Shown here: positions 19,907 through 33,425 of the stretch, piece after piece | Layout: each line of letters begins with the position of its first letter | Numbering within the stretch: position 1 is the stretch's first letter | From: a phage | NCBI GenBank assembly: GCA_020773975.1 | Contig: GCA_020773975.1_3638.1 | Direction: 5' to 3' (one strand) | DNA length: 64,000 nucleotides | Notes under the pieces: generated by a model | Told to the model about the DNA's origin: nothing | What the model saw: only the letters and a program-made list of their open reading frames with translations | The model's database searches: none | Position numbers and translations under genes: made by a program

Positions 19907-21232
19907 TTAATATATAGGATCCCACGTCAAAGAATCTACCTCACGAACACATTTGCCAACAGGAAATTGCGGAACACCGTCATCGGTCCTTGCTTGGTAT
20001 GTAAAAGTTATATACTTGCCGATAAGTTTTTTCATATTCTCTTGTGAGCGTTCTTCGTGTGTGCCTCTCATCTTACAGTTAAATTGTGTACCATCCTTCT
20101 CAGCACACAACAGGACACCTTCTCCATTCTTATCCTCAAAGGAATCAAGAACTCTGGCCTCACCATCCTGAAACAATTTCCACTTTTGAAGATCAGACGA
20201 TCTTTGTCCAAACTCATACTTTCCGTGAAAGTTCCTTATTACAACACCCTCATAACCTGCTTCCATGAACTCACTGATAAGCATCTTAACACGATCCTCA
20301 CCAGATACAATTGTTCCGTGTACCACTTTAATTAGGTGATGAGGCCACGCATATTCAGATACTTTCTGTAAATTATTAAACCTACACTTGTTTGTGTCAG
20401 AAGACATCCATGGTGTGTCATCTTCCGAAGGGATATCGAAAATATGATATTCTAAGTCTAAACTTGAATAACCACAATACTTATTAATATTTTTCTCTGG
20501 TTTCTTTGTGATAGGATGTTCTAACCCTTCGGAGTCTTTCCAAAATTCATCACCATTGTTAATTGCTTTTTCAAATCGCTTTATGTCTGATTGATAGTCT
20601 TTTTCTATCTCACACTCTATCTCTTCTGGTGTTCTCCATTTCTTAGCCAAAGAGACTATTTTCTGGAGACTTAACCCATGAATATACAACTCACCATCAA
20701 ACATTTTCAACCCTGTCTTTTTGGCTAGCTTAGACATCTGATCAAGCAATTGGCCTTGTACAGGATATGTTTTATTGCCACGACTATTAAACACAGGTAC
20801 ACCATCATCACCAACAAGAACAAGTGCTCTGACACCATCGAGTTTTGGTTGAACATGCACAGGGTACACTAAAGAGCTTTTCCTTTTAATAGCATCATGT
20901 GCAAGCATTGGTGAGAAATCTTGTGTTTTTGTAAGATCATCCTTTGATACACGATACCCAAGGCGTACTTGTTTTTCCCACTTAGATTTTGCCTCCAAAA
21001 CAGCTTGTTCTGTATCAGTTGTCTCATTTTTCTTACCGATGTTTTTGGCAAAGCATTTTGTGCGTTTATACTGCATTTTACCGTTTTCTTTACCAAACTC
21101 AACAACAGTTTCTGATCCATCTACCCACACATTCCACACTTGATATGTACCATCCCTGTTTATGGCGTACAGTGTTGGGAGGTTATTTTCAAGCATTAAA
21201 TACCTCGCTTGTGACAACAGATTTTCCTTCAA
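19907..21232 (-). CDS. ATP-dependent DNA ligase
   Basis: Motif I KLDGVRAL (KxDG) and nucleotidyltransferase architecture; 441 aa. Confidence 0.65.
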   Translation of the reverse strand: MKENLLSQARYLMLENNLPTLYAINRDGTYQVWNVWVDGSETVVEFGKENGKMQYKRTKCFAKNIGKKNETTDTEQAVLEAKSKWEKQVRLGYRVSKDDLTKTQDFSPMLAHDAIKRKSSLVYPVHVQPKLDGVRALVLVGDDGVPVFNSRGNKTYPVQGQLLDQMSKLAKKTGLKMFDGELYIHGLSLQKIVSLAKKWRTPEEIECEIEKDYQSDIKRFEKAINNGDEFWKDSEGLEHPITKKPEKNINKYCGYSSLDLEYHIFDIPSEDDTPWMSSDTNKCRFNNLQKVSEYAWPHHLIKVVHGTIVSGEDRVKMLISEFMEAGYEGVVIRNFHGKYEFGQRSSDLQKWKLFQDGEARVLDSFEDKNGEGVLLCAEKDGTQFNCKMRGTHEERSQENMKKLIGKYITFTYQARTDDGVPQFPVGKCVREVDSLTWDPIY

Positions 21233-21974
21233 GGTGATTCTCTACCAACTCGATAAGTTTTTGGTTGCTGAATGCTTCAACTGCTCCACAGCGCATTTGG
21301 TACACACCATATTTATCATACTGCTCTTGTTCAAAGTAATTGATCGCTGGGTTTATTACAACCAGTTTAATACCTCGTTTTGCGATTGCATGCAGCAATT
21401 CCCAGTTAAAGTCGATAACCTGATTAGAGCAGCCAACCAGAAGTACAAGATCTTGAGTATTCAAGTCATCAAGCATGGTAAACATGTCCTGATAAAGTGG
21501 TGCATTCTCACCGAAAAATACCACATTTGGCTTGCACCACCAGTAATCATCAGGGTCAACAACCGCATATCCGACATCAATCACACGTTTAGGAAACTCT
21601 TCACCATTCTGTACAACAAGCTCTTTGAGAAAACCATGTACATGGAGAATATCCTTCTTTTCAATGCCAGCACGTTCAAGCAGATCGTCAACGTTTGTCG
21701 TAAGATTACGTACTTGTCCAGGATAACGGTTATACCATTCTGCTACACGAAGATGTGCCATGTTGGGATGAACAGTCTTCAATTCTTCACGGCGTTTGTT
21801 ATAAAATTCGTGTGTTTTGTGATAGAAATTGCCACGAAATGCATGGATATTGCACACCTCTTCAAGATCATATTCGTCCCAGAGGGCTTTACCTGACGAA
21901 GTATCTGTACGGAATGTACGAATACCGCTTTCTGTTGACATACCTGCACCACTAATCACAAGTAATCGACGCAT
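21189..21974 (-). CDS. Sir2-family (sirtuin-like) NAD-dependent protein
   Basis: Canonical Sir2 NAD-binding motif GAGMSTESGIRTFR near the N-terminus; 261 aa. Confidence 0.7.
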   Translation of the reverse strand: MRRLLVISGAGMSTESGIRTFRTDTSSGKALWDEYDLEEVCNIHAFRGNFYHKTHEFYNKRREELKTVHPNMAHLRVAEWYNRYPGQVRNLTTNVDDLLERAGIEKKDILHVHGFLKELVVQNGEEFPKRVIDVGYAVVDPDDYWWCKPNVVFFGENAPLYQDMFTMLDDLNTQDLVLLVGCSNQVIDFNWELLHAIAKRGIKLVVINPAINYFEQEQYDKYGVYQMRCGAVEAFSNQKLIELVENHLEGKSVVTSEVFNA

Positions 21975-21982: not shown

Positions 21983-22390
21983 CTATTGTAATTTTAAAGA
22001 GTTACGTAAACGTGCTTCTTGACGATCACGAATAAACTGCGGGACATCATGAATGCTTTCGTTACCATGATAATTTTCCACAACTACAGATGTTACATCA
22101 TAGCAGTACCTTTCTGCTAAGTCAAGATAAGGTTTTAACTCTTTTACAGAAGTTGTTGTGTTTGAAACAATAACCTTTTCAACTTCATTCTGCATGTGGA
22201 GTTCTACTTTGTCACGACACCATTGATGAGCTTTGTGGACATTTTCTTCCTTCCACTCATACACACCTTCTTCGGTGTAATGAAATTGGTCAGCTTCGCA
22301 TACAGGCCAACGACCACCATCAGCCAACTCTTTAGCCAAAGTTGACTTTCCTGACCCAGAAACACCACGTAAAATAAATAACTTTTTCAT
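21983..22390 (-). CDS. P-loop kinase (polynucleotide-kinase-like)
   Basis: Walker A GVSGSGKST; 135 aa. Confidence 0.45.
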   Translation of the reverse strand: MKKLFILRGVSGSGKSTLAKELADGGRWPVCEADQFHYTEEGVYEWKEENVHKAHQWCRDKVELHMQNEVEKVIVSNTTTSVKELKPYLDLAERYCYDVTSVVVENYHGNESIHDVPQFIRDRQEARLRNSLKLQ

Positions 22391-22400
22391 TAGTTTCCCT

Positions 22401-22733
22401 TTAGTATTGGTGGCGGTAGAATTTTATACCTAGAGTATTTTCAAAATATTCTCTCGCCAACATGAATTTGTTCACAGCAGATGGATTAGAGCTATGTACG
22501 TGAATCTCCTTAAGATTCATAAACTTACCATCATGAAGCTCACGTTCAATATAGATGAAAGCATCGTAACCTTCCTCATCACCACCCAAGTCATTATCAA
22601 AATGGATGGAATCAATGTCACTATCACTCATAAATTTTAGTAATGAGTAGAAGCTAGAGAGATTCTTACACCATAAGGCATTAGGGTATCCATAATCTAC
22701 TGGATTTCGCAGATCATCCAACCACAGTTTCAA
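22401..22733 (-). CDS. Hypothetical protein
   Basis: ORF only. Confidence 0.3.
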   Translation of the reverse strand: MKLWLDDLRNPVDYGYPNALWCKNLSSFYSLLKFMSDSDIDSIHFDNDLGGDEEGYDAFIYIERELHDGKFMNLKEIHVHSSNPSAVNKFMLAREYFENTLGIKFYRHQY

Positions 22734-23662
22734 ATTGTACCTCCGAAAAAATCCTCAATGATTTCACGACGGAATTGTTCATGCAAACATTCCCAATGTT
22801 CTTTAGAATAGTTATCACGCAAATAGTTTAGAAGTTTATAATACTCTTCGTCAACTTTCTTCTTAGCTTCTTCTGGATTTCCCCAAATCATATCCCACTT
22901 GTTCTTACCACCACGCATCAAGAATTTCTTCGCCAAATAGTGTGGAGATTTTATTTTCAATAGAAGATCTTGTTGCCCTGTGGCAGCACGTACAACAAAT
23001 CCCTCATGTTTGCATTCCTTAGACATTTTAAGGATGTCTGAAAAGTGCATATTTATGTAAATCTCCGGTCGTTTAAAACCGAACTCTTTTGCGATAAGAT
23101 CAAGAGCTTTTTCACTAAGCATAGAAGTTAATTTGTCTTTGTGAAAGCGAACACCAATCAAATACACACCAGATTTTTCAGGTACAATGTGTGGATCTGA
23201 AGGAGCACAAATCTCAAAGATAAATGTTGTCTTTGGTTCTTCCACACATGATAACAACATTGGCAAATTAGTACATTCAGCCATAATCATGCCTTTTGCA
23301 AGTTTTGCAAAATCTGAATCTAAAGTTCCTGTTGTTGAAACAATTAGCTCACCATTGTATGAGCTTACTGCTGCCATAAAGCCATTAACTTTACGTGCTG
23401 CATTTACAGCCATATCTTTTGGCAGGTCAGTACCGTTCTCTAAATGATTGAAAATCTTTGTAAAAGGCCAAACAATAATGTTGTCATCACTGTCCACAAC
23501 CATACCACGGCAATCAAGTAAGCGACTGTCTTGATCCCACAAGTTTTCCCAGAAAACTTTGTTACTGTATTTCAAAACAGACAAACCTTTAAACTCACCA
23601 CTGGTATAAGTCTTCTTTTTAACAAGACCTTTTGCCACTAAATCTTCAACATTAAATTTCAT
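22730..23662 (-). CDS. Putative RNA ligase (nucleotidyltransferase superfamily)
   Basis: KVNG (KxNG-type motif I lysine); sits with the kinase and phosphatase genes. Confidence 0.4.
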   Translation of the reverse strand: MKFNVEDLVAKGLVKKKTYTSGEFKGLSVLKYSNKVFWENLWDQDSRLLDCRGMVVDSDDNIIVWPFTKIFNHLENGTDLPKDMAVNAARKVNGFMAAVSSYNGELIVSTTGTLDSDFAKLAKGMIMAECTNLPMLLSCVEEPKTTFIFEICAPSDPHIVPEKSGVYLIGVRFHKDKLTSMLSEKALDLIAKEFGFKRPEIYINMHFSDILKMSKECKHEGFVVRAATGQQDLLLKIKSPHYLAKKFLMRGGKNKWDMIWGNPEEAKKKVDEEYYKLLNYLRDNYSKEHWECLHEQFRREIIEDFFGGTI

Positions 23663-23859
23663 AAGTCTTCACCACCACTATTGTAGGTTTGTTTATTCAA
23701 TAACTCAATTATACATAGCGATCGTCTTGCGTCAACAGATTGGCTTGTTGAGTTTTTAGCAACAACCAGCTTGTCCACATCTTCTTTCTTGATGGATCCG
23801 TAAGCACCAGAATCCATCATGAAGAATATTTTATCGTCTGTTATCTTGTATATTTTCAT
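23659..23859 (-). CDS. Hypothetical small protein
   Basis: ORF only. Confidence 0.3.
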   Translation of the reverse strand: MKIYKITDDKIFFMMDSGAYGSIKKEDVDKLVVAKNSTSQSVDARRSLCIIELLNKQTYNSGGEDL

Positions 23860-23880
23860 TCATAAACTCTGAATAATTAT

Positions 23881-24459
23881 TCAATGACCATCAGCGGTGA
23901 AAACGTCTTTTTCCATGCACATTTGGTATGCTTCTGGTAGATCCAAAATTCTCCCATGTACATCCCAACCCACATCAAGGATCCGTCCTTTCGCACTGTA
24001 AGAGCCGTGGCAATGACCGTGCAAGAACACAGACCCAAAGTGGGATTTATTCCATGCGGCAAACGGATAATGACTCATACAAATTTTTTGTTCATAATCG
24101 TTAAATTCGTAATAATCGCACACATCATGACCACGTTTTTTGAATGTTTTAATCGCATCAAAATTGTCATGATTACCTTTGACAAGGACGATATGCCCAA
24201 CAAGTTCATCAAGAATTTCTTCAAGTCTTTTAATAACTTGCTTGCCATGACCGAAACAGAAATCACCAAGCACAAAAGTCACAGTGTCAGCATCTGCACC
24301 ATGGTTAAATTTCACTGTGAGGTCTTGGTTCATTTGTTCAACTGTTTTGTACAAATCACCACGAAAACGTTTTGAACTCTCAAAGTTAAGGATGTTTTTA
24401 TGCCAGTAATGTAAATCAGATGTTACACGGTATTTGGTTCCCATTTCTCTCTCCCACAC
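23881..24459 (-). CDS. Calcineurin-like metallophosphoesterase
   Basis: Motifs GD...G, GNHD and GHCHG. Confidence 0.6.
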   Translation of the reverse strand: MWEREMGTKYRVTSDLHYWHKNILNFESSKRFRGDLYKTVEQMNQDLTVKFNHGADADTVTFVLGDFCFGHGKQVIKRLEEILDELVGHIVLVKGNHDNFDAIKTFKKRGHDVCDYYEFNDYEQKICMSHYPFAAWNKSHFGSVFLHGHCHGSYSAKGRILDVGWDVHGRILDLPEAYQMCMEKDVFTADGH

Positions 24460-24469
24460 ACAACAAAAA

Positions 24470-24748
24470 TCACTGTCGCTCTAACAAATCTTCTGCTGGA
24501 TAAGCATACAGCATGTATTCCCAACCACGATGATAGTGTCTGTGCTGCCAGTTGATTAATTTTAGGCACACAATGTTCACCACGTTCCTGTCCCCATGGA
24601 TAAAAACACAAGTCTCAAGGATTGACTTTCCAAACTCAACATGACTGTCAAGATACAGTTTTGTGTTGTATCTTTTTTCAGCATCTAGCATGATCTGTTT
24701 CAGAGCCAGAAATGCCTCACGACACACAGATTTTTCATCAGAAATCAT
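24470..24748 (-). CDS. Hypothetical protein (first gene of the leftward unit; start trimmed to internal Met)
   Basis: C-terminal 92 aa of ORF 24470..25060. The N-terminal part of the ORF runs through the repeat-rich non-coding region and is Cys-rich junk. Confidence 0.3.
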   Translation of the reverse strand: MISDEKSVCREAFLALKQIMLDAEKRYNTKLYLDSHVEFGKSILETCVFIHGDRNVVNIVCLKLINWQHRHYHRGWEYMLYAYPAEDLLERQ

Positions 24749-25188
24749 TTTGATATTCAAGCATTTCCCCCACACAGGCAACCACGTAAATCGTGTCTGA
24801 TCACCACAACACAATCGGTTTGAAACAAACCTGTTTGACACACAACTGAATCGTCGTAGTGTCATGCCAAAACACAGACAGACATGATACGACGAAGATC
24901 CCCACACAGAGTCACATAGTGACTTGTGACAACCCGAATCCATGATTGAGATCAACACACAGAGACAAACCTGTAGGGTTTGTTGATGTGGGTTTATCTC
25001 AGAATGGCTCATGAGGGTTAGATGGTCACAAGCTATCAGCGCAGTGAGCATCTTACACACTCACGTATTGCCTGAAGAGTCTCATCGACTCACACTTTCA
25101 GGCAAAACACTATGAACTCTATGATTCGAAATCATCGAACCATACGATTCGACTCAATCGAATCATATCAACAAAAATATTTAAAATC

Positions 25189-25222
25189 AAGTCTTGACAT
25201 TCTTCAAGACTTAGTGTATTTT
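25189..25222 (+). promoter_or_regulatory. Sigma70-like promoter (TTGACA-17-TATTTT) overlapped by a 9-6-9 palindrome
   Basis: TTGACA at 25194-25199; palindrome AAGTCTTGA-cattct-TCAAGACTT spans 25189-25211. Confidence 0.45.
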
Positions 25223-25253
25223 AAATAAATTTTATATAATATATTATTATATA

Positions 25254-25384
25254 TATAATACGTAGTATTATATTAAATTATATTATATAATTTATATTAT
25301 ATTAGATCATATTAAATTATATTATACGTAGTATAATATATTATATTAAATAGATCATAGTATTATAATACGTAGTATTATATT
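25254..25384. repeat. AT tract with three copies of an ~20 bp repeat containing palindromic TACGTA, and clustered GATC sites
   Basis: ataatacgtagtattatatt at ~25255 and ~25365 (exact) and a variant at ~25322. GATC at 25305, 25353, 25390 and 25413. Confidence 0.55.
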
Positions 25385-25427
25385 TAATAGATCTTATATG
25401 TTAGTTTAATTTGATCAGTTAGTATTG

Positions 25428-25471
25428 TGTCCCTGAAACGGGGACATACCCATGTCCCTGAAACGGGGACA
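25428..25471. repeat. Two tandem 19 bp hairpin repeats (tgtccc-tgaaacg-gggaca), 25 bp period
   Basis: Exact direct repeat at 25428-25446 and 25453-25471; each is an inverted repeat GTCCC/GGGAC. Confidence 0.6.
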
Positions 25472-25481
25472 TATGGGAGGG

Positions 25482-25510
25482 TTGACATTGTGTGGGGTTA
25501 TGGGTAGCAT
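25482..25510 (+). promoter_or_regulatory. Sigma70-like promoter (TTGACA-17-TAGCAT) for the rightward gene block
   Basis: Consensus -35, weaker -10, immediately downstream of the hairpin repeats. Confidence 0.4.
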
Positions 25511-25917
25511 TCTCGGTGTTGGATTACACACCGGAGTTTGCCTTGAAATCTATTGTTGGGGGTTTCCATGTAAATCCGAAACCTGGGTCGTACATCGCTG
25601 TCCCGACAGAGTGGGTTTTTGATGAACGCTTATCACCAAGCGATCTGCAAAGACTGATACGCTTGTTGTGGAGGTACGAGTATTTCAAGAATCTGAACCC
25701 TCTGGGTGGGGAACTGGTATTCTTTCCGTCACAACAATCCTTGTGTGGCCTGTTGGGGTGGAATGAAAACTCACGAACCAAAGTGTCTGAATTTCTGTCC
25801 CGGATGGAGAGCTTTGGTTATATCAGGCGTGTTAGATCAGGATTTCAGGATTCTGATGGTAACGTGAAACCAAGAAATTATATTATCGTCAATCGTATCA
25901 GAGGGGATAAATCATGA
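25492..25917 (+). CDS. Hypothetical protein (true start probably TTG ~25543 after GGAG)
   Basis: The ORF-track start lies inside the promoter spacer. Stop overlaps the start of the next gene. Confidence 0.35.
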   Translation: MGLWVAFSVLDYTPEFALKSIVGGFHVNPKPGSYIAVPTEWVFDERLSPSDLQRLIRLLWRYEYFKNLNPLGGELVFFPSQQSLCGLLGWNENSRTKVSEFLSRMESFGYIRRVRSGFQDSDGNVKPRNYIIVNRIRGDKS

Positions 25918-26723
25918 ATATTCGTTTGAGTTTGAACAAGCTACATGTGCCAGTTGACCATTTCACATTTAGTGGTGGTGAGGAGCAGATTAAGATCGAT
26001 ATGCGTCATGTTCCGCATGGTTCGATAGGTTTTGTTGATATCTTCGCTAGACTCAAGAACTCACAGGATGTGATGTGTTTGGCACTGCTTGTTGATGCAG
26101 TTAATCGTCTTGGCAATTTGGATGTTGGTGTGGAAAAGGTTTTACACCTGCCGTACATTCCGTATGCTCGACAAGACCGAGTTATGAACCCTGGAGAATC
26201 TCTGTCGGTGAAAGTCTTTGCCACAATGATTAACTCGCTTGGTTTCCACAAAGTCATCGTCGATGATCCACACAGTGACGTATCCGCAGCACTGATTGAT
26301 AACGTGAAAATTCGTTCTCAGACTGATTTGTTCTTGAACATGAATTTTGATTTTGATCTGCTTACGGACGAATCGCTTGTGTTGGTTGCTCCAGATGCAG
26401 GTGCACGCAAGAAGACCCAGAAGGTTGCTGATACCTTGGAACTATCTGTGGTTGAAGCAGGTAAAGTCCGTGATGTTTCGACAGGGGCAATCACAGGTAC
26501 AACAGTGTTTGGTGATGTCGATGGGAAGACATGCCTGGTTGTCGATGATATCTGCGATGGTGGGTTTACGTTTACAAACTTAGCTCAAGCCTTGAAAGCT
26601 GCTGGTGCAAAACGTGTTATTTTGTATGTTACGCATGGAATTTTCTCTCGTGGGAAAGAATTTATTCTCGACGGTGGTGTTGACGAAATTTATGCGTATT
26701 ACGACTGGACAGAAAATTTTTAA
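25914..26723 (+). CDS. Ribose-phosphate pyrophosphokinase (PRPP synthetase) family protein; candidate ADP-ribose pyrophosphate synthetase
   Basis: Prs motifs PYARQDR and PRPP-binding VDDICDGG; 269 aa. Confidence 0.65.
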   Translation: MNIRLSLNKLHVPVDHFTFSGGEEQIKIDMRHVPHGSIGFVDIFARLKNSQDVMCLALLVDAVNRLGNLDVGVEKVLHLPYIPYARQDRVMNPGESLSVKVFATMINSLGFHKVIVDDPHSDVSAALIDNVKIRSQTDLFLNMNFDFDLLTDESLVLVAPDAGARKKTQKVADTLELSVVEAGKVRDVSTGAITGTTVFGDVDGKTCLVVDDICDGGFTFTNLAQALKAAGAKRVILYVTHGIFSRGKEFILDGGVDEIYAYYDWTENF

Positions 26724-26788
26724 GTAGGTATTGACAAAGATACGTTTTAGTGAAAAAATACGCTTTTTAGGATTGGAGGGTTGAGACC

Positions 26789-28504
26789 ATGCTTCACAAA
26801 GAAAGTCCATTGCTGTTTGCAGATTTTTATAAACCAAGTCACATCTCGATGTACGACAAACGTTCACAGTTTGTTCAAGACAACATGACACCACGCAATG
26901 CGAAACACTTTGTACACTTTGCAGATGATGACCATCGTGTGATGTTTGCTGGTCTTCAGGGATTTATCAAGTGGTTCCTGATTGACATGTTTAATAATAA
27001 TTTCTTTGCTTTACCGAAAGAAAAGGCGATTCAGGATTACAAAGAGATTTGTGATTTGAGCATTGGGAAGGATGCTGTTGAAACTTGGGGTTTTGAGAGA
27101 TTGCATGATCTTGGCTATCTCCCAATTGAAATTAGAGCCTTGCCTGAAGGAACTCTTGTTCCTGTTCAGGTTCCTATGTTCACGATTCAGAATACGCACC
27201 CTGATTTTTACTGGCTGCCAAACTTCCTTGAGAGCGTGATCTCCTCGGAGACTTGGAAGACAATTACCACGGCAACGACTTTCTGGCAATACCGTAAACT
27301 ATCAGAACTGTGGGCAAAGAAAACATGTGATAACAACGATCACGTTCCTTTCCAGAACCATTGTTTTGCATACCGTGGTGAAGCTGGAACACATGACGCA
27401 GCACAGAGCGAATTTGGGCAACTGATTAGCTCAATGGGCACAGATACAATTCCAGCGATTGTTTACGCAAATCGCTATTACAACATGAAAGGTCGCTTTG
27501 TTGCTGGGTCTATTCCCGCATCTGAGCATAGCGTAGCGACAACGAACATTGGTTTTATTGTTGAGCGTATCCAGCAGGAAAATCCTGATATGTCGCTTGC
27601 TGAAGTACGTTTTCGTGCTGAAGTTGAGTTCTTAAAGCGTTATGCAACAGAGATTTTTCCGTCAGGCTATGCTTCATACGTCGCAGACAGCTATGATTTT
27701 TGGGCAATCATTACACAGGCAGCCAAAATCCTGAAAGATGAGATTATGTCTCGTGATGGCAAGCTGGTCTTTCGACCGGACAGTGGGATCCCAGAGCACA
27801 TTATTGCTGGCTATCGTGTGTGCTCCCAGGAAGAATGGGCAACTGGTCAGTGCTGTGATATGGATGCTGTGCTGTTTAAAAATGGCAAATATGTCACTCT
27901 GCACGAGATGTCCAGAGACACTTCCTGGATGCGAGATTCGGAAGGAAACCTCGTAGATTGGAAATCTTTGACAGGTGATGAGTTTACAAATTATCTGACC
28001 AAAGAGGAGGTTAAGGGTGCTGTACAATGCTTGTGGGAAATCTTTGGTGGTAGTGTAAACTCTTTGGGTTACAAAGTTCTTGATAGCCATGTTGGTTTAA
28101 TCTACGGAGACTCTATCACAATCTCTCGTGCTAAAGAGATCTTTGAGCGCCTTGAAGAACGAGGCTTTGCTTCCAGCAACATTGTGTTTGGTGTAGGATC
28201 TTATACAACGCAATATACAACTCGTGATTCTCTTGGGATGGCTGTAAAAGCTACTGGTGCTGTGATTGATGGCAGACAAGTAATGGTTGTAAAAGAGCCT
28301 AAGACTGATCTTGGGAAGAAATCTGCGAAAGGTTTTGTTAAAGTTATTCGTGGTGATGATGGTGAGTTGAAGCTGGTAGATAATCTTGGTATTAATCAGG
28401 TATCTGACCCTGATAACGAGCTTAGAACAGTTTTTGTTAATGGTAAGCTGCTTGTGGATGAGGATCTTGAAGAAATTCGCCAAAGAGCTTTGTCACAGCT
28501 TTAA
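26789..28504 (+). CDS. Nicotinamide phosphoribosyltransferase (NAMPT) family protein; candidate nicotinamide ADP-ribose transferase
   Basis: 571 aa with type II phosphoribosyltransferase features; directly downstream of the Prs-like gene. Confidence 0.6.
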   Translation: MLHKESPLLFADFYKPSHISMYDKRSQFVQDNMTPRNAKHFVHFADDDHRVMFAGLQGFIKWFLIDMFNNNFFALPKEKAIQDYKEICDLSIGKDAVETWGFERLHDLGYLPIEIRALPEGTLVPVQVPMFTIQNTHPDFYWLPNFLESVISSETWKTITTATTFWQYRKLSELWAKKTCDNNDHVPFQNHCFAYRGEAGTHDAAQSEFGQLISSMGTDTIPAIVYANRYYNMKGRFVAGSIPASEHSVATTNIGFIVERIQQENPDMSLAEVRFRAEVEFLKRYATEIFPSGYASYVADSYDFWAIITQAAKILKDEIMSRDGKLVFRPDSGIPEHIIAGYRVCSQEEWATGQCCDMDAVLFKNGKYVTLHEMSRDTSWMRDSEGNLVDWKSLTGDEFTNYLTKEEVKGAVQCLWEIFGGSVNSLGYKVLDSHVGLIYGDSITISRAKEIFERLEERGFASSNIVFGVGSYTTQYTTRDSLGMAVKATGAVIDGRQVMVVKEPKTDLGKKSAKGFVKVIRGDDGELKLVDNLGINQVSDPDNELRTVFVNGKLLVDEDLEEIRQRALSQL

Positions 28505-29415: not shown

Positions 29416-29488
29416 GGCCCCTTAGCTCAGTGGTTAGAGCAGGTGACTCATAATCGCTTGGTCGCTGGTTCAAGTCCAGCAGGGGCCA
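29416..29488 (+). tRNA. tRNA-Met (anticodon CAT; could be initiator, elongator or lysidine-modified Ile2)
   Basis: Cloverleaf by eye: acceptor ggcccct/aggggcc, anticodon loop cuCAUaa, T-loop ttcaagt, 3' CCA encoded. Confidence 0.75.
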
Positions 29489-29543
29489 CCAAATGTGGCA
29501 CACGAAATAAACTAGGTTTATTGTTTTCGGAGGAGAAAACTTA

Positions 29544-29867
29544 ATGGCTAAGAAACAGTCTGCTAAAAAGGTATCAGCTATCGAGGCGATCAAGCAACCT
29601 TTTCAGTTTGAATCAAAATCCACGCAGACACATTCTGCACCGCACGATGTGCGTCTTGGTGGCAAAACGCAAACTGTAGCAGTTCTGAAAAAACGCAAAG
29701 ATGAAGACGGTAATACTGAAATGTATTATGAATCTGTGTCTCGTGTCATTGGTGGTGAAGTGATTTCTGCTTCCTATCGTATCCGTACTGGGAAAACAAA
29801 GCGTGAACGAGAAGTGAAACAGAAAACAAGCACTCCTGTAGAAAACGTTAAGAAAACTAAAAAATAA
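29544..29867 (+). CDS. Hypothetical basic protein
   Basis: ORF with RBS; lysine-rich. Confidence 0.35.
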   Translation: MAKKQSAKKVSAIEAIKQPFQFESKSTQTHSAPHDVRLGGKTQTVAVLKKRKDEDGNTEMYYESVSRVIGGEVISASYRIRTGKTKREREVKQKTSTPVENVKKTKK

Positions 29868-29943
29868 TTTACTGACGAGAGTGCCACCGTGAGCCAGCGT
29901 CATTAAACAAAGGGAATCACGGACATTCAGGAGGGTTGAGATT

Positions 29944-30138
29944 ATGATAGGATCTTTGCTTAAGATTGCAAGCGATGTAACAACAACGGCTGTTGAAGTG
30001 ACTGCTGCGGTAACAACTCCGTTTGTTGATTTAGCATCAGATGCTATAGCAGCAGCAGCAGACGAGATGATTTTGTCACCGACATCTGATCTTGTCCAAG
30101 ATCTTTGTGATTCTATAAAAGATGCTGTAAAAGATTAA
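29944..30138 (+). CDS. Hypothetical small protein
   Basis: ORF only. Confidence 0.3.
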   Translation: MIGSLLKIASDVTTTAVEVTAAVTTPFVDLASDAIAAAADEMILSPTSDLVQDLCDSIKDAVKD

Positions 30139-30211
30139 AATTTTTCTTGACATAGTTTTTGTTTTTCTGTATAGTTACTTTATCAAAGCTAATTTACATA
30201 TGAGAGATTGA

Positions 30212-30859
30212 ATGTCTACTAAGATTTCCGTAACTCGTGCACTTGCTTCTATCTCTAAGATTGAAGATAAGATCAATAAGCGTATTTATAACCTTGAATG
30301 TATTAAGATTGCAAAAGGAACTGAGAATAATTGTAAGATTCCTGGTTATATCGGCTCTGTTGATGATTTTAAGAAATCTGCGATCAACGACTATCAAAGT
30401 CTGCAAGACCTCTTGGCAGTTCGCGATGAACTGAAGGCAAAAATTGTCAAGTCTAATGCTGAGACAATTGTCAAAATTGGTAAGGTGTCTATGACAGTTG
30501 CTGAGGCAATCGAACGCAAACGGACGATTTGCTTTAAACAAGAGTTGTTAAACAAACTTTGTGCACAGCGTGCTTCTGCACAGCTTCTTCTGGCAAAAGA
30601 AGAAAAATCTCTGGAAGATAAACTTGAAAATGCCAGAGCGCCATATATCCAACGTGATAAAGCGCCAGATGCAGAGCAGATTAAGACTGTGGAAGCTCCC
30701 ATTCGAATGATGAACACACCATCGGTTGTGGATCCTCTTGAACTGGCTTCTAAGATTCGTTCTCTTGAAGAAGAGATTGAAGATTTCTTGTCTAACGTTG
30801 ATTTTGCGTTGTCTGAGTCAAACGCTAAGACAGAAATTGAGATTGAGCACTCTCTCTAA
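30212..30859 (+). CDS. Hypothetical protein (coiled-coil)
   Basis: ORF only. Confidence 0.35.
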   Translation: MSTKISVTRALASISKIEDKINKRIYNLECIKIAKGTENNCKIPGYIGSVDDFKKSAINDYQSLQDLLAVRDELKAKIVKSNAETIVKIGKVSMTVAEAIERKRTICFKQELLNKLCAQRASAQLLLAKEEKSLEDKLENARAPYIQRDKAPDAEQIKTVEAPIRMMNTPSVVDPLELASKIRSLEEEIEDFLSNVDFALSESNAKTEIEIEHSL

Positions 30860-31224
30860 AAGGCTCTGATAATATCATTATCGTTCCTTTGTTTTGAAAT
30901 TTAAAACATTGCTTTTGATTAACGAAGTTTACATCATCTTGCCTCCTGGGGATTGGAGGTTAAATATTCCCCACCATGTATCGTATATGTATGAGGATAA
31001 TACAGGACATAGATGCAGCGAGGCACACTAAGATGCCTTGTTGTTTCTACTAAGTAAAAGTTCATACAATAAAGGTCAATGGTCAAATGTAAAAGATGAA
31101 ACTTGAAAGTTAATTCTTGAAAGATAAAATTTCGTTTATCATCTGAAATCCTTGGCACAGGTTATGGCTCACAAGATATGGTCTGTAAAGCCTCAAGGCT
31201 GTTAATCGGAAGCAATGTCTTATT

Positions 31225-31296
31225 GCTCGTATAGCTCAACGGTAGAGCACCTGCCTTGTAAGCAGGGGGTTGCAGGTTCGAAACCTGCTGCGAGCA
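31225..31296 (+). tRNA. tRNA-Thr (anticodon TGT)
   Basis: Anticodon loop cuUGUaa, T-loop ttcgaaa, CCA encoded. Confidence 0.7.
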
Positions 31297-31301
31297 CCAA
31301 T

Positions 31302-31398
31302 GCTGGGTAAGCCCCTTGGCAAGGGCGAGGATTTATAATCCTGAAAATAGACGGGCTAGCCGTTGAATACATAGGTGGTTCGATTCCATCGCCCAGCT
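31302..31398 (+). tRNA. Atypical tRNA-like gene (~97 nt; canonical acceptor and T-arm, anticodon not confidently assignable)
   Basis: Acceptor gctgggt/gcccagc and T-arm ggtgg-ttcgatt-ccatc are canonical; the central region holds the palindrome aggatt-TAT-aatcct and a hairpin acgg-gctag-ccgt. Confidence 0.35.
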
Positions 31399-31598
31399 AC
31401 AAGTTTGTTTTATAGTGTATTAGCTTATATTATTCGATATAAATGCCTGATCAGCATTTGTTGGGAATGAGGCATACAATGCGTGAGAAAGCTATCGGTG
31501 CGCAACGTTGATTTCAAACGTATTCATGCTCGTAGAGCACCAACTGTGGAAGTTGGGGTGAGGTTGAGTAACCATACACTATAAAGCATTCTTATTCT

Positions 31599-31672
31599 CG
31601 GGGTGTAGCTCAGTTGGATAGAGCAGCGGCCTTCTAAGCCGTAGGTCACAGGTTCGAATCCTGTCTCCTCGA
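31599..31672 (+). tRNA. tRNA-Arg (anticodon TCT)
   Basis: D-arm tagctcagttggatagagca, anticodon loop cuUCUaa, T-loop ttcgaat, CCA encoded. Confidence 0.7.
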
Positions 31673-31751
31673 CCAGATTAACCCCAACTTGAGAATCGTC
31701 AGCGCGGCTCGTAAGACCCACTCTATAGGTTCTCTACTCGGGGTACTTATT

Positions 31752-31825
31752 GCACGGTTGCCGGAATTTGGTTACGGGTCTGTCTGCAAAACGGATATAT
31801 GTCGGTTCAAGTCCGACACCGTGCT
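31752..31825 (+). tRNA. tRNA-Cys (anticodon GCA)
   Basis: Acceptor gcacggt/accgtgc, anticodon loop cuGCAaa, T-loop ttcaagt, CCA encoded. Confidence 0.6.
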
Positions 31826-31865
31826 CCAAACTTTCAATTTCTTGGTAAATATGTTAAAATACCAC

Positions 31866-31894
31866 TTGACAGATATGTTTTTATTTGATAATAT
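31866..31894 (+). promoter_or_regulatory. Sigma70-like promoter (TTGACA-17-TAATAT)
   Basis: Near-consensus hexamers with 17 bp spacer ~20 nt upstream of the RBS/ATG at 31914. Confidence 0.55.
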
Positions 31895-31913
31895 CATTAA
31901 GTGGGGTTTTAAA

Positions 31914-32261
31914 ATGGCTACCAAGCAGCTTACAAAACGTAGAAGAGGAAAAGGTCGTCCTCTGAAAGAGGAATCTAATGCAATTCAGTTAGAGAAAAAT
32001 ATCCTAGATTTGAAAACGAATCTGATTGCAATGATTCCTGAAGCTCATCAGGTTCTTAGGGATTTGATGAAGAATGTGAATACAAAAGACAATATCAGAG
32101 AAAATATCGCTCGTTATGTTATTGAGAAAGGTGAGCAGATGCTTTCTGATTACTTTGATGAGGAAAACGAAGAGTTACTCGAAAAAGATAACTCAGAAAA
32201 AGCTCCTATTAAGGCAGCTAAACCATTCTCGACGGATATTGTTCAATTCAAACAAGGTTAA
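31914..32261 (+). CDS. Hypothetical basic protein (115 aa) inside the tRNA array
   Basis: ATG with upstream promoter; the longer ORF-track start at 31689 overlaps tRNA-Cys and is rejected. Confidence 0.4.
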   Translation: MATKQLTKRRRGKGRPLKEESNAIQLEKNILDLKTNLIAMIPEAHQVLRDLMKNVNTKDNIRENIARYVIEKGEQMLSDYFDEENEELLEKDNSEKAPIKAAKPFSTDIVQFKQG

Positions 32262-32262
32262 T

Positions 32263-32349
32263 GTGTCGTTAGACCGTAGGGGTAGCTGGGGAGACTGTAA
32301 ATCTCCTGTCTCGAAAGGGACTCGGGTAGTTCGACTCTATCACGGCACA
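32263..32349 (+). tRNA. tRNA-Tyr (anticodon GTA), class II with long variable arm
   Basis: Anticodon arm ggaga-cuGUAaa-tctcc, variable arm, T-loop ttcgact, CCA encoded. Confidence 0.65.
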
Positions 32350-32420
32350 CCAACTGAATCTGTACTGGCTTTGATGTGTGACGATACCCTCCAATCGTGG
32401 TTGTTGGGCCAGTACAGTTT

Positions 32421-32493
32421 GGGAGTGTAGATCAGTTAGTAGATCGCTCGACCGATAATCGAGAGGACGTAGGGGCAGAGCCTACCACTCCCA
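32421..32493 (+). tRNA. tRNA-like, apparent anticodon GAT (Ile), with non-canonical T-loop (possible pseudo-tRNA)
   Basis: Acceptor gggagtg/cactccc, anticodon arm ctcga-ccGAUaa-tcgag (C33), T-arm gtagg-GGCAGAG-cctac lacks the TTCRA consensus. Confidence 0.4.
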
Positions 32494-32501
32494 CCAAATA
32501 T

Positions 32502-32573
32502 GCATCCATAGTTTAATTGGGAAAACTACAGCCTTCCAAGCTGAAGTCGAGGGTTCGATACCCTCTGGATGCT
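32502..32573 (+). tRNA. tRNA-Gly (anticodon TCC)
   Basis: Acceptor gcatcca/tggatgc, anticodon loop cuUCCaa, T-loop ttcgata, CCA encoded. Confidence 0.65.
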
Positions 32574-32687
32574 CCAGTTAAAAGATGTCAATGAAATCCG
32601 CTTGGGTCAACTGAAGACCGTAACAAATTCCATGGTGTTGTGTTTGCGGTCCAACACCAGACATCTTCTATCTATGTACAGGCTTGA

Positions 32688-33251: not shown

Positions 33252-33256
33252 TTTTT

Positions 33257-33336
33257 AATGAGAGTAGCGTAACTTCACTGGGTGAAGGCTGGCCTCCAAA
33301 ACCAGTGACTAAGAGGTTCGATTCCTCACTCTCGTG
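33257..33336 (+). tRNA. Non-canonical tRNA-like gene with apparent 8-bp acceptor / 4-bp T-stem, 6-bp D-stem; possible anticodon CCA
   Basis: Hand fold: acceptor atgagagt/actctcgt, D hairpin cttcac-tgg-gtgaag, anticodon arm gctgg(c)-cuCCAaa-(a)ccagt, T-arm gagg-ttcgatt-cctc. No CCA encoded. Confidence 0.35.
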
Positions 33337-33340
33337 CAAA

Positions 33341-33413: not shown

Positions 33414-33425
33414 CCAAGTTAAAAC

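What the first reader, a model, noticed from the sequence alone, without database searches (positions are those of the whole stretch)
24760..25490. Repeat-rich divergent control region: candidate origin of replication or early regulatory hub
A ~730 bp non-coding interval separates the leftward and rightward gene blocks. It holds CA-rich and GATTCGA-type short repeats (24780-25180), a promoter whose -35 lies inside a 9-6-9 palindrome (25189-25211), a ~190 bp nearly pure AT tract with three copies of a 20 bp repeat around palindromic TACGTA, four GATC sites within ~110 bp, and two exact tandem 19 bp hairpin repeats just upstream of a second promoter. AT-rich unwinding element plus clustered GATC plus iterons plus flanking promoters is the classic signature of a replication origin, but could equally be a dense operator region.
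Basis: seen in the sequence. Interest (0 to 1): 0.7.

Follow-up and report, generated by a model that had tools for sequence, protein, structure and literature searches.

The report
Origin-like control module beside winged-helix gene
The non-coding stretch between the two big gene blocks of this rV5-related E. coli phage is a real, conserved DNA module that looks like a replication origin sitting next to the gene for its own small DNA-binding protein, though no experiment shows yet that replication starts there.

Summary
The window comes from an Avunavirus-like member of Vequintavirinae. The 794-bp gap (24749-25542) lies between a leftward gene block (RNA repair, nucleotide metabolism) and a rightward block that opens with a small winged-helix (wHTH) gene, a NARP1-like prs/NAMPT pair, tRNAs and structural genes.

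The same layout recurs in 13 relatives from at least 5 genera: back-to-back promoters, an AT-rich tract with oriented AGATCW repeats, two GTTAGT repeats, two dyad sites, a TTGACA promoter and the wHTH gene. It stays with the wHTH gene even where prs/NAMPT is absent. The dyad sites occur nowhere else in 64 kb here or in the 146 kb of PVP-SE1. They change in step between genera, which fits protein-binding sites better than RNA hairpins.

The wHTH resembles the origin-binding N-terminal domain of phage and plasmid initiators (DnaD, lambda O, RepA_N types) but has no helicase-loading domain. No DnaA or IHF sites are present.

My best reading is an ori-rep-like cassette that also autoregulates its own promoter (0.45). 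A purely transcriptional hub is nearly as likely (0.35). In close relatives, 24893-25479 seems to be one copy of a 0.6-kb inverted repeat.

The parts
24470..24748 (-). First gene of the leftward block (92 aa, phrog_7684, function unknown; homologue of rV5 gp082 and PVP-SE1 gp100)
24749..25155 (.). Hairpin-dense, CA-rich non-coding stretch with at least 7 inverted repeats (for example 24853-24895, 24947-25001, 25069-25106 and the GATTCGA repeats at 25123-25167). It is probably the 5' leader of the leftward operon. It is found only in Avunavirus; other genera carry a gp099-family gene at this position.
   Evidence: (z -5.2 and -5.6 on the two strands)
24893..25479 (.). The segment that appears a second time, in inverted orientation, in the closely related 18-1-2/19-1-2/24-2-1 genomes. 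This is inferred from scaffold ends and is not verifiable for the window's own genome.
25162..25190 (-). Candidate leftward promoter P_L (TTGATT, 17-nt spacer, TG-TATGAT)
   Evidence: equivalent leftward promoters read in PVP-SE1, Hena1, CR3 and A5-4
25189..25212 (.). 9-6-9 palindrome AAGTCTTGA-CATTCT-TCAAGACTT, enclosing the -35 element of P_R1
25194..25222 (+). Candidate rightward promoter P_R1 (TTGACA, 17-nt spacer, TATTTT), firing into the AT tract
   Evidence: TTGACA at the equivalent place in PVP-SE1 and KB57
25213..25400 (.). AT tract (10% GC), the candidate DNA-unwinding element. It is hypervariable in unit number among relatives that are otherwise about 95% identical, and it breaks short-read assemblies.
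25249..25389 (.). Three AT-rich palindromes centred on TACGTA (25259, 25325, 25369)
25304..25417 (+). Oriented AGATCW repeats (25304, 25352, 25389) plus TGATCA at 25412
   Evidence: (A at position -1 in 37 of 40 sites in 11 genomes)
25396..25423 (+). Two copies of the (ATAA)GTTAGT direct repeat. This is the block best conserved between genera.
25428..25448 (.). Dyad site O1 (TGTCCC-N7-GGGACA, inside an exact 21-nt repeat)
25453..25473 (.). Dyad site O2, an exact copy of O1 placed 25 nt downstream
25482..25510 (+). Promoter P_R2 of the wHTH operon (TTGACA, 17-nt spacer, TAGCAT). The -35 element is invariant across genera.
25513..25534 (+). 5'-UTR stem-loop that ends in the Shine-Dalgarno sequence. 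It occupies the position of the third dyad site (O3) of Seunavirus, Mydovirus and Henunavirus.
25543..25917 (+). Small winged-helix protein (124 aa from TTG; phrog_8453) resembling the N-terminal domain of replication initiators. It is the presumed binder of O1 and O2.
25914..28504 (+). Downstream cargo: a prs-like gene (25914-26723) and a NAMPT-like gene (26789-28504). This is the NARP1 type of NAD+ reconstitution pair.

Best explanation
The interval is a conserved composite module. Its right half (about 25160-25545) works like an ori-rep cassette.

Shown here:
- Back-to-back sigma-70-type promoters (P_L, P_R1).
- A 188-bp tract of 10% GC that carries oriented AGATCW repeats and AT palindromes.
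- Two GTTAGT repeats.
- Two identical dyad sites, O1 and O2.
- The promoter (P_R2), a 5'-UTR hairpin and the gene of a 124-aa winged-helix protein whose fold and remote homology match the origin-binding N-terminal domain of phage and plasmid initiators.

Inferred:
- Dimers of the wHTH protein bind O1 and O2, and in other genera a third site over the 5' UTR.
- This binding sets the protein's own level by controlling P_R2.
- The same binding organises the neighbouring AT tract for melting. Host RNA polymerase firing from P_R1 through the tract (as at lambda, T7 or T4 origins) helps open it.
- The phage's T7 gp4-like primase-helicase then enters without DnaA.

The left half (24749-25155) is most likely the structured 5' leader of the leftward operon driven by P_L.
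For: - The features are real and statistically exceptional.
- The order AGATCW repeats, AT/T-rich tract, GTTAGT x2, O1-O2, TTGACA, (O3), wHTH gene recurs in Av-05, two metagenomic Avunavirus contigs, PVP-SE1, KB57, Hena1, KP13-16, phiTE, CR3, F1M1E, SSBI34, A5-4 and ABPH49.
- A block of about 45 bp is alignable between genera even though the neighbouring protein is only about 65% identical.
- The module stays with the wHTH gene where prs/NAMPT is absent (A5-4).
- The dyad motif is unique: 2 sites in the 64-kb window, and 3 sites, all at this locus, in the 146 kb of PVP-SE1.
- The arms differ between genera, but the copies within one genome are kept alike. All three Hena1 copies share the same asymmetric A/A position. 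This points to a genome-encoded protein ligand rather than an RNA hairpin.
- wHTH type: PHROG hits to replication initiation protein and DnaD-like loader N-termini. The Foldseek hits with the highest TM scores (0.45-0.51) include RepA_N initiator NTDs (4pql, 4pt7, 5kbj), DnaD-N (2v79) and the ORC2 winged helix. The named BFVD hits are mostly replication O or initiator proteins. The PVP-SE1 paralogue gp213 hits phrog_8102 'replication initiation protein' at 8e-30 and phrog_8453 at 5e-6.
- gp213 sits beside its own pair of palindromes and an 18%-GC tract carrying AAGATCT. So PVP-SE1 carries two modules of the same design.
- In 18-1-2-type genomes the cis part (24893-25479) recurs without P_R2 or the gene. 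O1 and O2 therefore do something besides autoregulation.
- Longer family members add a coiled coil and an acidic tail ending in ...VPF or ...PPF. From my own knowledge this resembles the SSB C-terminal tip.
- AGATCT is the single-strand ATP-DnaA box of the oriC unwinding element (PMC4285127).
- The origin of this subfamily is undefined in the literature (PMC3606486).
Against: - No replication data of any kind exist.
- The protein is a bare wHTH with no helicase-recruiting domain.
- Dyad sites bracketing a promoter are the normal design of an autorepressor. Fold hits also include MarR, ArsR and TFIIE.
- No DnaA box or IHF consensus was found in any of the 13 regions.
- rV5-type Vequintavirus has only a simple 120-bp divergent region at the equivalent junction, and no rV5-type record was listed among the 74 tblastn matches at E <= 1e-5.
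- GC skew follows gene orientation throughout PVP-SE1, so the skew minimum carries no independent weight.
- PVP-SE1 has other AT-rich candidates, at 131.7 kb and in a 2.2-kb ORF-free gap at 117.6 kb.
- The oriC 13-mer pattern is not enriched in the window.
- The TACGTA units in the AT tract vary freely in number and may be neutral slippage.
Confidence: 0.45

Rival explanations
1. The region is a purely transcriptional control hub. The wHTH protein is an autorepressor (or activator) of P_R2 and so of the rightward early operon led by the NARP1-type anti-defence genes. P_L and P_R1 are divergent early promoters. The AT tract acts as UP-element-like, curved or nucleoid-protein-binding DNA. The GATC-containing repeats make promoter activity depend on Dam methylation state or SeqA, giving a switch between the injected genome and replicated genomes. 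No replication starts here.
For: - Promoter-like sites on both strands.
- Dyad sites at about -52 and -77, plus a third site over the 5' UTR in three genera, which is the usual autoregulatory layout.
- Sub-threshold Pfam hits to HTH_Crp_2, and PDB sequence hits to ArsR and MarR-like proteins.
- The protein has no extra domain.
- The module heads an operon whose first cargo is the prs/NAMPT pair.
- rV5-type phages do without the module.
Against: - It does not explain why the cis part is duplicated without P_R2 or the gene in 18-1-2-type genomes.
- It does not explain why the AGATCW motif is oriented (A at -1 in 37 of 40 sites, while +4 is A or T equally) rather than symmetric as Dam/SeqA sites would be.
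- It does not explain why the module keeps its form in A5-4, where the cargo differs.
- It does not explain why the wHTH family links to initiator N-termini rather than to repressor families.
Confidence: 0.35
2. The region is a recombination-prone mosaic junction or inverted repeat, and its AT tract is a neutral minisatellite. The conserved parts are only promoters. The repeats, the copy-number variation and the assembly breaks reflect slippage and exchange between two copies, possibly flipping a roughly 54-kb segment.
For: - The number of AT-tract units differs among relatives that are about 95% identical.
- Scaffolds of three phages and 8 metagenome contigs end inside the region or at its edge.
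- The left flank differs completely between the window and Av-05, starting exactly at 24893-24895.
- An O2 remnant lies at a second Av-05 junction.
Against: - Being a recombination hot spot does not exclude a function, and it does not explain the conservation between genera of AGATCW, GTTAGT and the dyad sites.
- Isomers were not observed directly.
Confidence: 0.1
3. The region is a headful packaging (pac) site of the P1 type. Clustered GATC-containing hexamers in AT-rich DNA would be recognised by a small DNA-binding terminase subunit, here the wHTH protein, with Dam methylation controlling cleavage.
For: - Relatives are circularly permuted and terminally redundant, and a possible pac fragment was seen for phiTE (PMC3475682).
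- No small terminase subunit appears in the annotations retrieved for these genomes.
- GATC hexamers are clustered.
- The P1 pac design is cited from my own knowledge.
Against: - The region lies about 10 kb from the large terminase gene.
- The wHTH protein gives no terminase hit in PHROGs or Pfam and lacks an oligomerisation core.
- Its promoter is of the early sigma-70 type.
- The dyad sites bracket a promoter.
Confidence: 0.05

Closest known systems
Iteron-type ori-rep cassettes of plasmids (P1 oriR/RepA, pPS10 RepA, staphylococcal pSK41 RepA_N)
   Same: - An AT-rich tract with GATC-bearing short repeats lies next to repeated initiator-binding sites.
- The initiator gene follows immediately, and its promoter is flanked or overlapped by those sites, giving autoregulation.
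- The binding domain is a winged helix. RepA_N NTD structures are among the fold matches with the highest TM scores.
   Different: - The sites are dyad-symmetric with a 25-bp period, not direct 19-22-bp iterons.
- The protein is a single 124-aa wHTH with no second domain.
- There are no DnaA boxes.
- There is no sequence homologue in 72,556 plasmids.
Phage initiators with an N-terminal wHTH (lambda O, SPP1 G38P, DnaD-like 'replisome organiser' proteins) and their origins
   Same: - Remote sequence and fold similarity to their N-terminal origin-binding domain.
- The binding sites lie beside an AT-rich region.
- A promoter reads into the region, as pR does at ori-lambda.
   Different: - In those phages the origin lies inside the initiator gene, and the protein carries a C-terminal helicase or loader-recruiting domain. 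Here the sites are upstream and the protein stops after the wing.
- Longer family members instead add a coiled coil and an acidic ...VPF tail.
E. coli oriC DNA-unwinding element (13-mers GATCTnTTnTTTT; AGATCT single-strand ATP-DnaA boxes)
   Same: AGATCT/AGATCA repeats followed by T-rich runs in the most AT-rich DNA of the region. In PVP-SE1, KB57 and A5-4 the repeat reads AGATCTTATGTTTT or AGATCTTGTTTTT (PMC4285127).
   Different: - No 9-mer DnaA boxes lie nearby in any relative.
- In the window itself the best 13-mer match has 2 mismatches, which is common by chance.
Transcription-activated origins of virulent phages (T7 primary origin: promoters 1.1A/1.1B plus an AT-rich region; T4 oriF/oriG: promoter plus downstream unwinding element)
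   Same: A strong promoter (P_R1) fires directly into an AT-rich, easily melted tract. The phage subfamily encodes a gp4-type primase-helicase (PVP-SE1 gp013) and needs no DnaA.
   Different: - P_R1 is not conserved in every genus; it is absent or weak in Hena1 and Certrevirus.
- Those origins have no dedicated site-specific binding protein.
Autoregulated winged-helix repressors (MarR/ArsR type)
   Same: A small wHTH, palindromic sites with about 11 bp between half-site centres, and sites around its own promoter.
   Different: No family-level sequence match: all hits are sub-threshold. The wHTH family instead links to initiator N-termini. The sites are accompanied by a conserved AT/AGATCW tract.

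Membership tests
Iteron/ori-rep cassette (plasmid theta origins such as P1 oriR and pPS10) | Repeated initiator-binding sites directly adjacent to an AT-rich unwinding region | tested here: met
   O1 and O2 (25428-25473) abut the 10%-GC tract at 25213-25400. The same order is found in 13 relatives.
Iteron/ori-rep cassette (plasmid theta origins such as P1 oriR and pPS10) | The sites are direct repeats (iterons) bound by initiator monomers | tested here: not met
   Each unit is a dyad (TGTCCC-N7-GGGACA). The units are directly repeated with a 25-bp period, but their internal symmetry fits dimer binding.
Iteron/ori-rep cassette (plasmid theta origins such as P1 oriR and pPS10) | Adjacent gene encodes the initiator, and its promoter is controlled by the same sites | tested here: inconclusive
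   The gene is adjacent and its promoter is bracketed by the sites. The protein resembles an initiator N-terminal domain. Neither binding nor initiator activity has been shown.
Iteron/ori-rep cassette (plasmid theta origins such as P1 oriR and pPS10) | The fragment supports autonomous or helper-dependent replication | not testable with these tools
   Needs cloning, marker-frequency analysis or 2D gels.
DnaA-dependent origin (oriC type) | Cluster of 9-mer DnaA boxes (TTATCCACA / TTWTNCACA) next to the unwinding element | tested here: not met
   There is no match with 1 mismatch or fewer to TTATCCACA, and no perfect TTWTNCACA, in the window's gap or in 12 relatives.
DnaA-dependent origin (oriC type) | 13-mer GATCTnTTnTTTT repeats or AGATCT boxes in the unwinding element | tested here: inconclusive
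   AGATCW repeats are present and oriented. PVP-SE1 and KB57 have 10-of-11 matches to the 13-mer. The window's best match is 9 of 11, which is common by chance.
Transcription-activated phage origin (T7/T4 type) | Promoter immediately upstream of an AT-rich unwinding element, reading into it | tested here: met
   P_R1 (TTGACA 25194 / TATTTT 25217) is followed at once by the AT tract. TTGACA is conserved at the equivalent place in Av-05, PVP-SE1 and KB57, but is not clear in Hena1 or Certrevirus. Promoter activity has not been shown.
Initiator-type winged helix (DnaD-N / RepA_N / lambda O N-terminal domain) | Significant sequence or fold similarity to the N-terminal wHTH of known initiators | tested here: inconclusive
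   - phrog_270 at 1.6e-4 and phrog_186 at 6.3e-4.
- Foldseek TM 0.45-0.51 to 4pql, 4pt7, 5kbj and 2v79, but with E of 0.02-0.08 and MarR hits alongside.
- BFVD hits named as replication O or initiator proteins.
- A transitive link through PVP-SE1 gp213, which hits phrog_8102 at 8e-30 and phrog_8453 at 5e-6.
- No Pfam or NCBIfam match above threshold.
Initiator-type winged helix (DnaD-N / RepA_N / lambda O N-terminal domain) | A second domain that recruits the helicase, loader or primase | tested here: not met
   The protein is 124 aa and ends after the wing. Only the distant members P0012, P0014 and P0017 carry a C-terminal extension.
Autoregulated wHTH repressor with operator | Palindromic sites overlapping or flanking the regulator's own promoter and unique in the genome | tested here: met
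   O1 and O2 are centred about 52 and 77 bp upstream of the predicted start. O3 lies in the 5' UTR of PVP-SE1, KB57 and Hena1. The motif is found only at this locus.
Autoregulated wHTH repressor with operator | Membership of a recognised repressor family (MarR, ArsR, PadR, Crp) | tested here: not met
   All hits are below the family thresholds (HTH_Crp_2 at 18.3 bits against a cut-off of 27; PDB ArsR at E 0.7).
P1-type pac site | Clustered GATC hexamers near or inside the terminase genes, recognised by the small terminase | tested here: not met
   GATC hexamers are clustered. However, the site lies about 10 kb from the large terminase gene, and the wHTH protein gives no terminase hit.
Known RNA families (Rfam) or a type III antitoxin mimic (pseudo-ToxI) | Match to a covariance model, or identity with the phiTE escape locus | tested here: not met
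   No Rfam match at E <= 1 over 24000-26200. The phiTE pseudo-ToxI locus lies at 106.7 kb, 7 kb from the equivalent region.

The most novel reading that the evidence does not exclude
In this lineage the origin-like module (24893-25479) exists as two inverted copies of 0.6 kb, about 54 and 79 kb apart on the circular map. Both copies would be served by one stand-alone initiator-N-terminal-domain protein. A virulent myovirus would then have two protein-defined origins. Through recombination between the copies it could also exist as two genome isomers that swap which early or middle operon sits next to the wHTH/NARP1/structural block, in the manner of a chloroplast or herpesvirus inverted repeat.
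Probability: 0.2. Interest if true: 0.7.

Novelty: new variant of a known kind. Interest (0 to 1): 0.5.

Why it matters
- The replication origin of rV5-like phages (Vequintavirinae, widely used as therapeutic and biocontrol phages) is undefined. The rV5 genome paper tried skew analysis and found that it only tracks transcription (PMC3606486). This module gives a concrete, testable candidate: a fragment of about 400 bp plus one 124-aa protein.
- It assigns a likely role and a cognate DNA site to an orphan protein family, phrog_8453. That family has only 19 representatives at 50% identity among 1.84 billion proteins.
- It shows how the NARP1-type anti-defence operon is probably switched on and limited.
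- It explains why assemblies of these phages break at this locus, and why the TH18 record has an artificial version of it.
- If the inverted duplication is real, it bears on genome isomerism and mosaicism in large virulent phages.

Tried and rejected
- Rfam scan of 24000-26200 on both strands: nothing at E <= 1.
- DnaA box and IHF consensus scans in 13 genomes: none.
- oriC 13-mer scan of the window: the region's best match has 2 mismatches, which is background level.
- A protein-coding reading of 24749-25060. The ORF stays open on the minus strand, but the translation is Cys/Val/Leu-rich with no homologue, and tblastn with the gp099-family genes that occupy this spot in other genera finds nothing.
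- RNA-hairpin reading of O1/O2. Rejected because the arms are imperfectly paired in several genera, with the same asymmetry in every copy within a genome.
- Global-regulator reading of the wHTH protein. Rejected because the site is unique in 64 kb and in 146 kb.
- Pseudo-ToxI-type antitoxin mimic. That is a different locus in phiTE.
- wHTH homologues on plasmids: none.
- IMG/VR scan for more relatives: only 6 loci, mostly reference genomes.
- Pfam and NCBIfam naming of the wHTH protein: nothing above threshold.
- Treating Av-05 as the simple inversion isomer of the window. Rejected because Av-05 lacks the window's left block entirely and has unrelated genes at the second junction.
- A broad literature search for transcriptomes of the subfamily found nothing useful.
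Full report
**Identity of the window.** Megablast places the window in an Avunavirus-like member of Vequintavirinae. It is 94-96% identical to Escherichia phages Av-05, 18-1-2, 19-1-2, 24-2-1 and TH18, and 72-78% identical to Seunavirus and Mydovirus phages. All genes to the left of 24748 are on the minus strand. They include an unknown 92-aa protein, a phosphoesterase, an RNA ligase, a PNK-like ATPase and Sir2, followed by DNA ligase, thymidylate synthase and ribonucleotide reductases. All genes to the right of 25543 are on the plus strand: a small wHTH protein, a prs-like gene, a NAMPT-like gene, 15 tRNAs, then terminase and structural genes.

- The gap runs from 24749 to 25542 (794 bp). This takes TTG 25543 as the start of the right gene. 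Three things support that start: GGAG at 25533-25536, the start column shared by homologues and the start of the PHROG profile. The GTG 25492 start used in Av-05 and in cluster P0001 would put the promoter inside the gene.
- The CA-rich and GATTCGA repeats are present, as are the 9-6-9 palindrome at 25189-25212 and the promoter-like pair TTGACA 25194 / TATTTT 25217.
- Also present are the TACGTA palindromes (25259, 25325, 25369), the four GATC sites (25305, 25353, 25390, 25413) and the exact 21-nt repeat at 25428 and 25453.
- The second promoter, TTGACA 25482 / TAGCAT 25505, is there too.
- The AT tract 25213-25400 is 10% GC. It is by far the lowest 188-bp window in the 64 kb; the next lowest is 27%.
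- Only two places in the window hold 4 GATC within 120 bp.
- The palindromes fold far better than shuffled controls (z -3.7 to -5.3).
- The GC skew changes sign here. However, in the fully annotated relative PVP-SE1 the cumulative skew turns at every change of gene orientation, and the rV5 authors reached the same conclusion (PMC3606486). The skew therefore adds no independent evidence.

**Comparative anatomy.** tblastn with the wHTH protein finds 74 phage records. In every one of the thirteen I opened, the gene is the first of a rightward block and follows a divergent gap of 255-794 bp. These are Av-05, two metagenomic Avunavirus contigs, PVP-SE1, KB57, Hena1, a Hena1-like metagenomic contig, KP13-16, phiTE, CR3, F1M1E, SSBI34, A5-4 and ABPH49. 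Anchoring the sequences on the invariant -35 TTGACA shows a common order:
1. Three to five AGATC-containing sites in AT- or T-rich DNA, often with AT palindromes.
2. Two copies of ATAAGTTAGT.
3. One or two dyad sites of the form T[G/A]TNCC-N4-7-GGNA[C/T]A, usually followed by ATTAGG.
4. The promoter.
5. In Seunavirus, Mydovirus and Henunavirus, a third copy of the dyad in the 5' UTR, ending in the Shine-Dalgarno sequence.

In the window an unrelated stem-loop (25513-25534) takes the place of the third dyad.

The block from AGATCATAAGTTAGT to GTTAGTATTG is alignable by blastn between genera whose wHTH proteins are only about 65% identical. The base before GATC is A in 37 of 40 sites from 11 genomes (P about 3e-10 at 45% A). 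The base after GATC is A or T equally. The repeat is therefore an oriented AGATCW element, not just a symmetric Dam site.

In A5-4 the module and the wHTH gene are present but prs/NAMPT are not downstream. The module therefore goes with the wHTH gene and not with the cargo.

**The dyad sites are protein sites, most likely for the wHTH protein.**
- The motif occurs twice in the window's 64 kb, both times here.
- The PVP-SE1 version, GGAATAA[AT]TAG, occurs three times in 146 kb, all at this locus.
- The arms differ between genera: GGGACA here and in KP13-16, GGGAATA in PVP-SE1, KB57 and Hena1, GGGTATA in L019.
- Copies within a genome are kept alike. In Av-05 the two copies differ only in the spacer. 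All three Hena1 copies share the same unpaired A/A position.
- Several sites (KP13-16 O1, F1M1E, ABPH49) are imperfect palindromes at position 4.

This is the behaviour of sites read by a genome-encoded dimer, not of RNA hairpins. A distant family member (P0012, locus L023) again has GGGAACAATTAG-type dyads, this time on both sides of an AT tract with AGATC. So the co-occurrence of site and protein reaches well beyond the subfamily. The binding itself is inferred and has not been shown.

**What kind of protein it is.**
- The family is very small: 19 representatives at 50% identity among 1.84 billion proteins.
- The AlphaFold model (pLDDT 76) is a winged helix preceded by a short beta hairpin.
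- PHROGs gives phrog_8453 (function unknown). It also gives weak hits to the N-terminal 80-100 residues of 'replication initiation protein' (phrog_270) and 'DnaD-like helicase loader' (phrog_186).
- The PDB matches with the highest TM scores (0.45-0.51) include the RepA_N initiator N-terminal domains 4pql, 4pt7 and 5kbj, DnaD-N 2v79 and the ORC2 winged helix. MarR, TFIIE and others appear at similar E-values.
- In the viral structure library the named hits are dominated by replication protein O, replication initiator proteins and 250-310-aa HTH proteins.
- PVP-SE1 has a 92-aa paralogue, gp213. It hits phrog_8102 'replication initiation protein' at 8e-30 (N-terminal third of a 337-position profile) and phrog_8453 at 5e-6, and it aligns with the PVP-SE1 orthologue of the window's protein.
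- Against an initiator role, the window's protein ends right after the wing and has no domain that could recruit a helicase.
- Three longer family members add a coiled coil and an acidic tail ending in DWVPF, DTVPF or DPPF. From my own knowledge this resembles the SSB C-terminal tip (DDDIPF) that docks replication proteins. I could not test this.

**A second module.** gp213 of PVP-SE1 is followed by two TGCAAAATTTGCA palindromes. After them comes an 18%-GC tract, the lowest 100-bp window in that genome, containing AAGATCTTTTAT and TTATGTTTTTGTTAGT. PVP-SE1 thus has two modules of the same design, each with its own wHTH and its own dyads.

In the 18-1-2, 19-1-2 and 24-2-1 assemblies the syntenic second site instead carries a copy of the window's cis elements.
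- Scaffold 1 of 18-1-2 begins with the end of the AT tract, the GTTAGT repeats, O1, O2 and 'atatgggag', equal to window 25381-25479. It then continues into an unrelated convergent gene. The same scaffold ends, in reverse complement, inside O2 next to the wHTH gene.
- Scaffold 2 begins with the reverse complement of window 24893-25311, next to Av-05-type small genes. It ends with the window's left genes plus 24400-25016.
- This is the assembly graph of a 0.6-kb inverted repeat (A-IR-B-IR').
- An independent Logan contig ends at the same gene-to-O2 junction.
- One metagenome contig I read ends exactly at the 24895 boundary, and the look-up listed seven similar places without showing them.
- Av-05 keeps only a 30-nt O2 remnant at the second site and lacks the window's left block.
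- The TH18 record is simply the two 18-1-2 scaffolds joined end to end (79,447 + 54,435 = 133,882). Its single hairpin and short AT tract are therefore artefacts.

Whether the window's own genome has the second copy cannot be seen, because it would lie about 79 kb to the right of the region. The duplicated segment includes P_L, P_R1, the AT tract, AGATCW, GTTAGT, O1 and O2, but excludes P_R2 and the gene. O1 and O2 must therefore have a role beyond autoregulation.

**Mechanism.** I favour an ori-rep-like cassette (0.45).
- Shown: the cis anatomy, its conservation, the uniqueness of the sites, and the initiator-like fold class of the neighbouring protein.
- Inferred: the protein binds O1 and O2 as dimers. 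This both throttles P_R2 and positions a nucleoprotein complex at the edge of the AT tract. Transcription from P_R1 through the tract helps melt it. The phage's gp4-type primase-helicase (PVP-SE1 gp013) then enters without DnaA, which fits the absence of DnaA and IHF sites.
- The AGATCW repeats resemble the AGATCT single-strand boxes and 13-mers of the oriC unwinding element (PMC4285127). Their ligand here is unknown.

The nearly equal rival (0.35) is a purely transcriptional hub. In it, an autorepressor controls an early operon led by the NARP1-type pair (10.1101/2024.02.11.579819), and the GATC repeats act as a methylation-sensitive timing device. This rival is favoured by:
- the bare wHTH;
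- the dyad-around-promoter layout;
- the absence of the module from rV5-type Vequintavirus, which has only a 120-bp divergent gap with one TTGACA;
- the existence of other AT-rich candidates in PVP-SE1.

The lesser rivals are a recombination junction with a neutral minisatellite (0.1) and a P1-like pac site (0.05).

**The left half.** The stretch 24749-25155 holds at least seven inverted repeats and folds much better than shuffles on both strands (z -5.2 and -5.6). It has no Rfam match and no coding signal. It is specific to Avunavirus; other genera carry a conserved 93-124-aa gene at this position. It lies downstream of the best leftward promoter candidate (TTGATT 25190, TG-TATGAT 25162), so it is most simply a structured 5' leader. 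Its function is open.

**Novelty and verdict.** No paper I could find describes this module or an origin for the subfamily. The design belongs to a known kind: binding sites, an AT-rich element and an adjacent wHTH gene. It differs in four ways: a stand-alone homologue of the initiator N-terminal domain, dyad sites rather than direct iterons, oriented AGATCW repeats without DnaA boxes, and probable inverted duplication. I rate it a new variant of a known kind, with interest 0.5. It is a solid, testable lead on an open but specialised question, and its function has not been demonstrated.

Noticed in passing
window 24893-25479; L029 1-99; L001 4001-4417; L030 3960-3999; L021 1: In the 18-1-2, 19-1-2 and 24-2-1 genomes this segment appears twice in inverted orientation. 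It carries the promoters, the AT tract, AGATCW, GTTAGT, O1 and O2, but not P_R2 or the wHTH gene. Both scaffolds of each assembly end in it, and one metagenome contig read here (with 7 similar places listed but not shown) stops exactly at its outer edge. This implies an A-IR-B-IR' map and possibly two genome isomers.
   Followed up: partly
L028 31525-32076 (PVP-SE1 131,525-132,076): PVP-SE1 has a second module of the same design. It comprises gp213 (a 92-aa wHTH, phrog_8102 'replication initiation protein' N-terminus at E 8e-30), two TGCAAAATTTGCA palindromes and the genome's lowest-GC tract, which carries AAGATCTTTTAT. It is syntenic with the second repeat copy of 18-1-2.
   Followed up: partly
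window 25914-28504: The prs-like and NAMPT-like genes directly behind the wHTH gene are the gene pair described as NARP1 (Adps + Namat), a phage pathway that rebuilds NAD+ against NAD-depleting defences. Sir2 (21189-21974) lies in the opposite block.
   Followed up: partly
L001 (ON075799.1 79,447/79,448 join): The 'complete genome' of phage vB_EcoM_TH18 is the two scaffolds of phage 18-1-2 joined end to end (79,447 + 54,435 = 133,882 bp). The join falls inside this region and creates a false version with one hairpin and a short AT tract.
   Followed up: yes
window 25492-25543: Relatives annotate the wHTH gene from GTG 25492 (141 aa), which would contain its own -10 element and 5'-UTR hairpin. 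TTG 25543, behind GGAG, fits the homologue alignment and the PHROG profile better (124 aa).
   Followed up: yes
P0012, P0014, P0017; L023 840-1230: Longer members of the wHTH family add a coiled coil and an acidic tail ending in DWVPF, DTVPF or DPPF, reminiscent of the SSB C-terminal tip. In L023 the gene follows a small ribbon-helix-helix-like ORF, and GGGAACAA-type dyads flank an AT tract with AGATC.
   Followed up: partly
window 21983-24459: An RNA-repair-like cluster sits next to the region: a PNK-like ATPase (21983-22390), a T4 Rnl1-type RNA ligase (22730-23662) and a metallophosphoesterase (23881-24459).
   Followed up: no
window 29416-34689: A cluster of 15 tRNA genes lies on the plus strand, 4-9 kb downstream of the region.
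   Followed up: no
window 63934-63970: This is the only other place in the window with 4 GATC within 120 bp. It lies in ordinary-composition sequence without the AT tract or dyads and looks coding.
   Followed up: no
L026-L028 (PVP-SE1 116,551-118,793): PVP-SE1 has a 2.2-kb stretch without annotated ORFs and with a 19%-GC minimum at 117.6 kb. It is comparable to the 'non-coding' box drawn in the rV5 genome paper and is another unexplored candidate cis element.
   Followed up: no
L031 2163-2182 and 2491-2510 (Av-05): A 20-nt palindrome, GGACTACTATAACATAGTCC, occurs twice upstream of small genes in Av-05. The second copy is fused to the remnant of O2.
   Followed up: no
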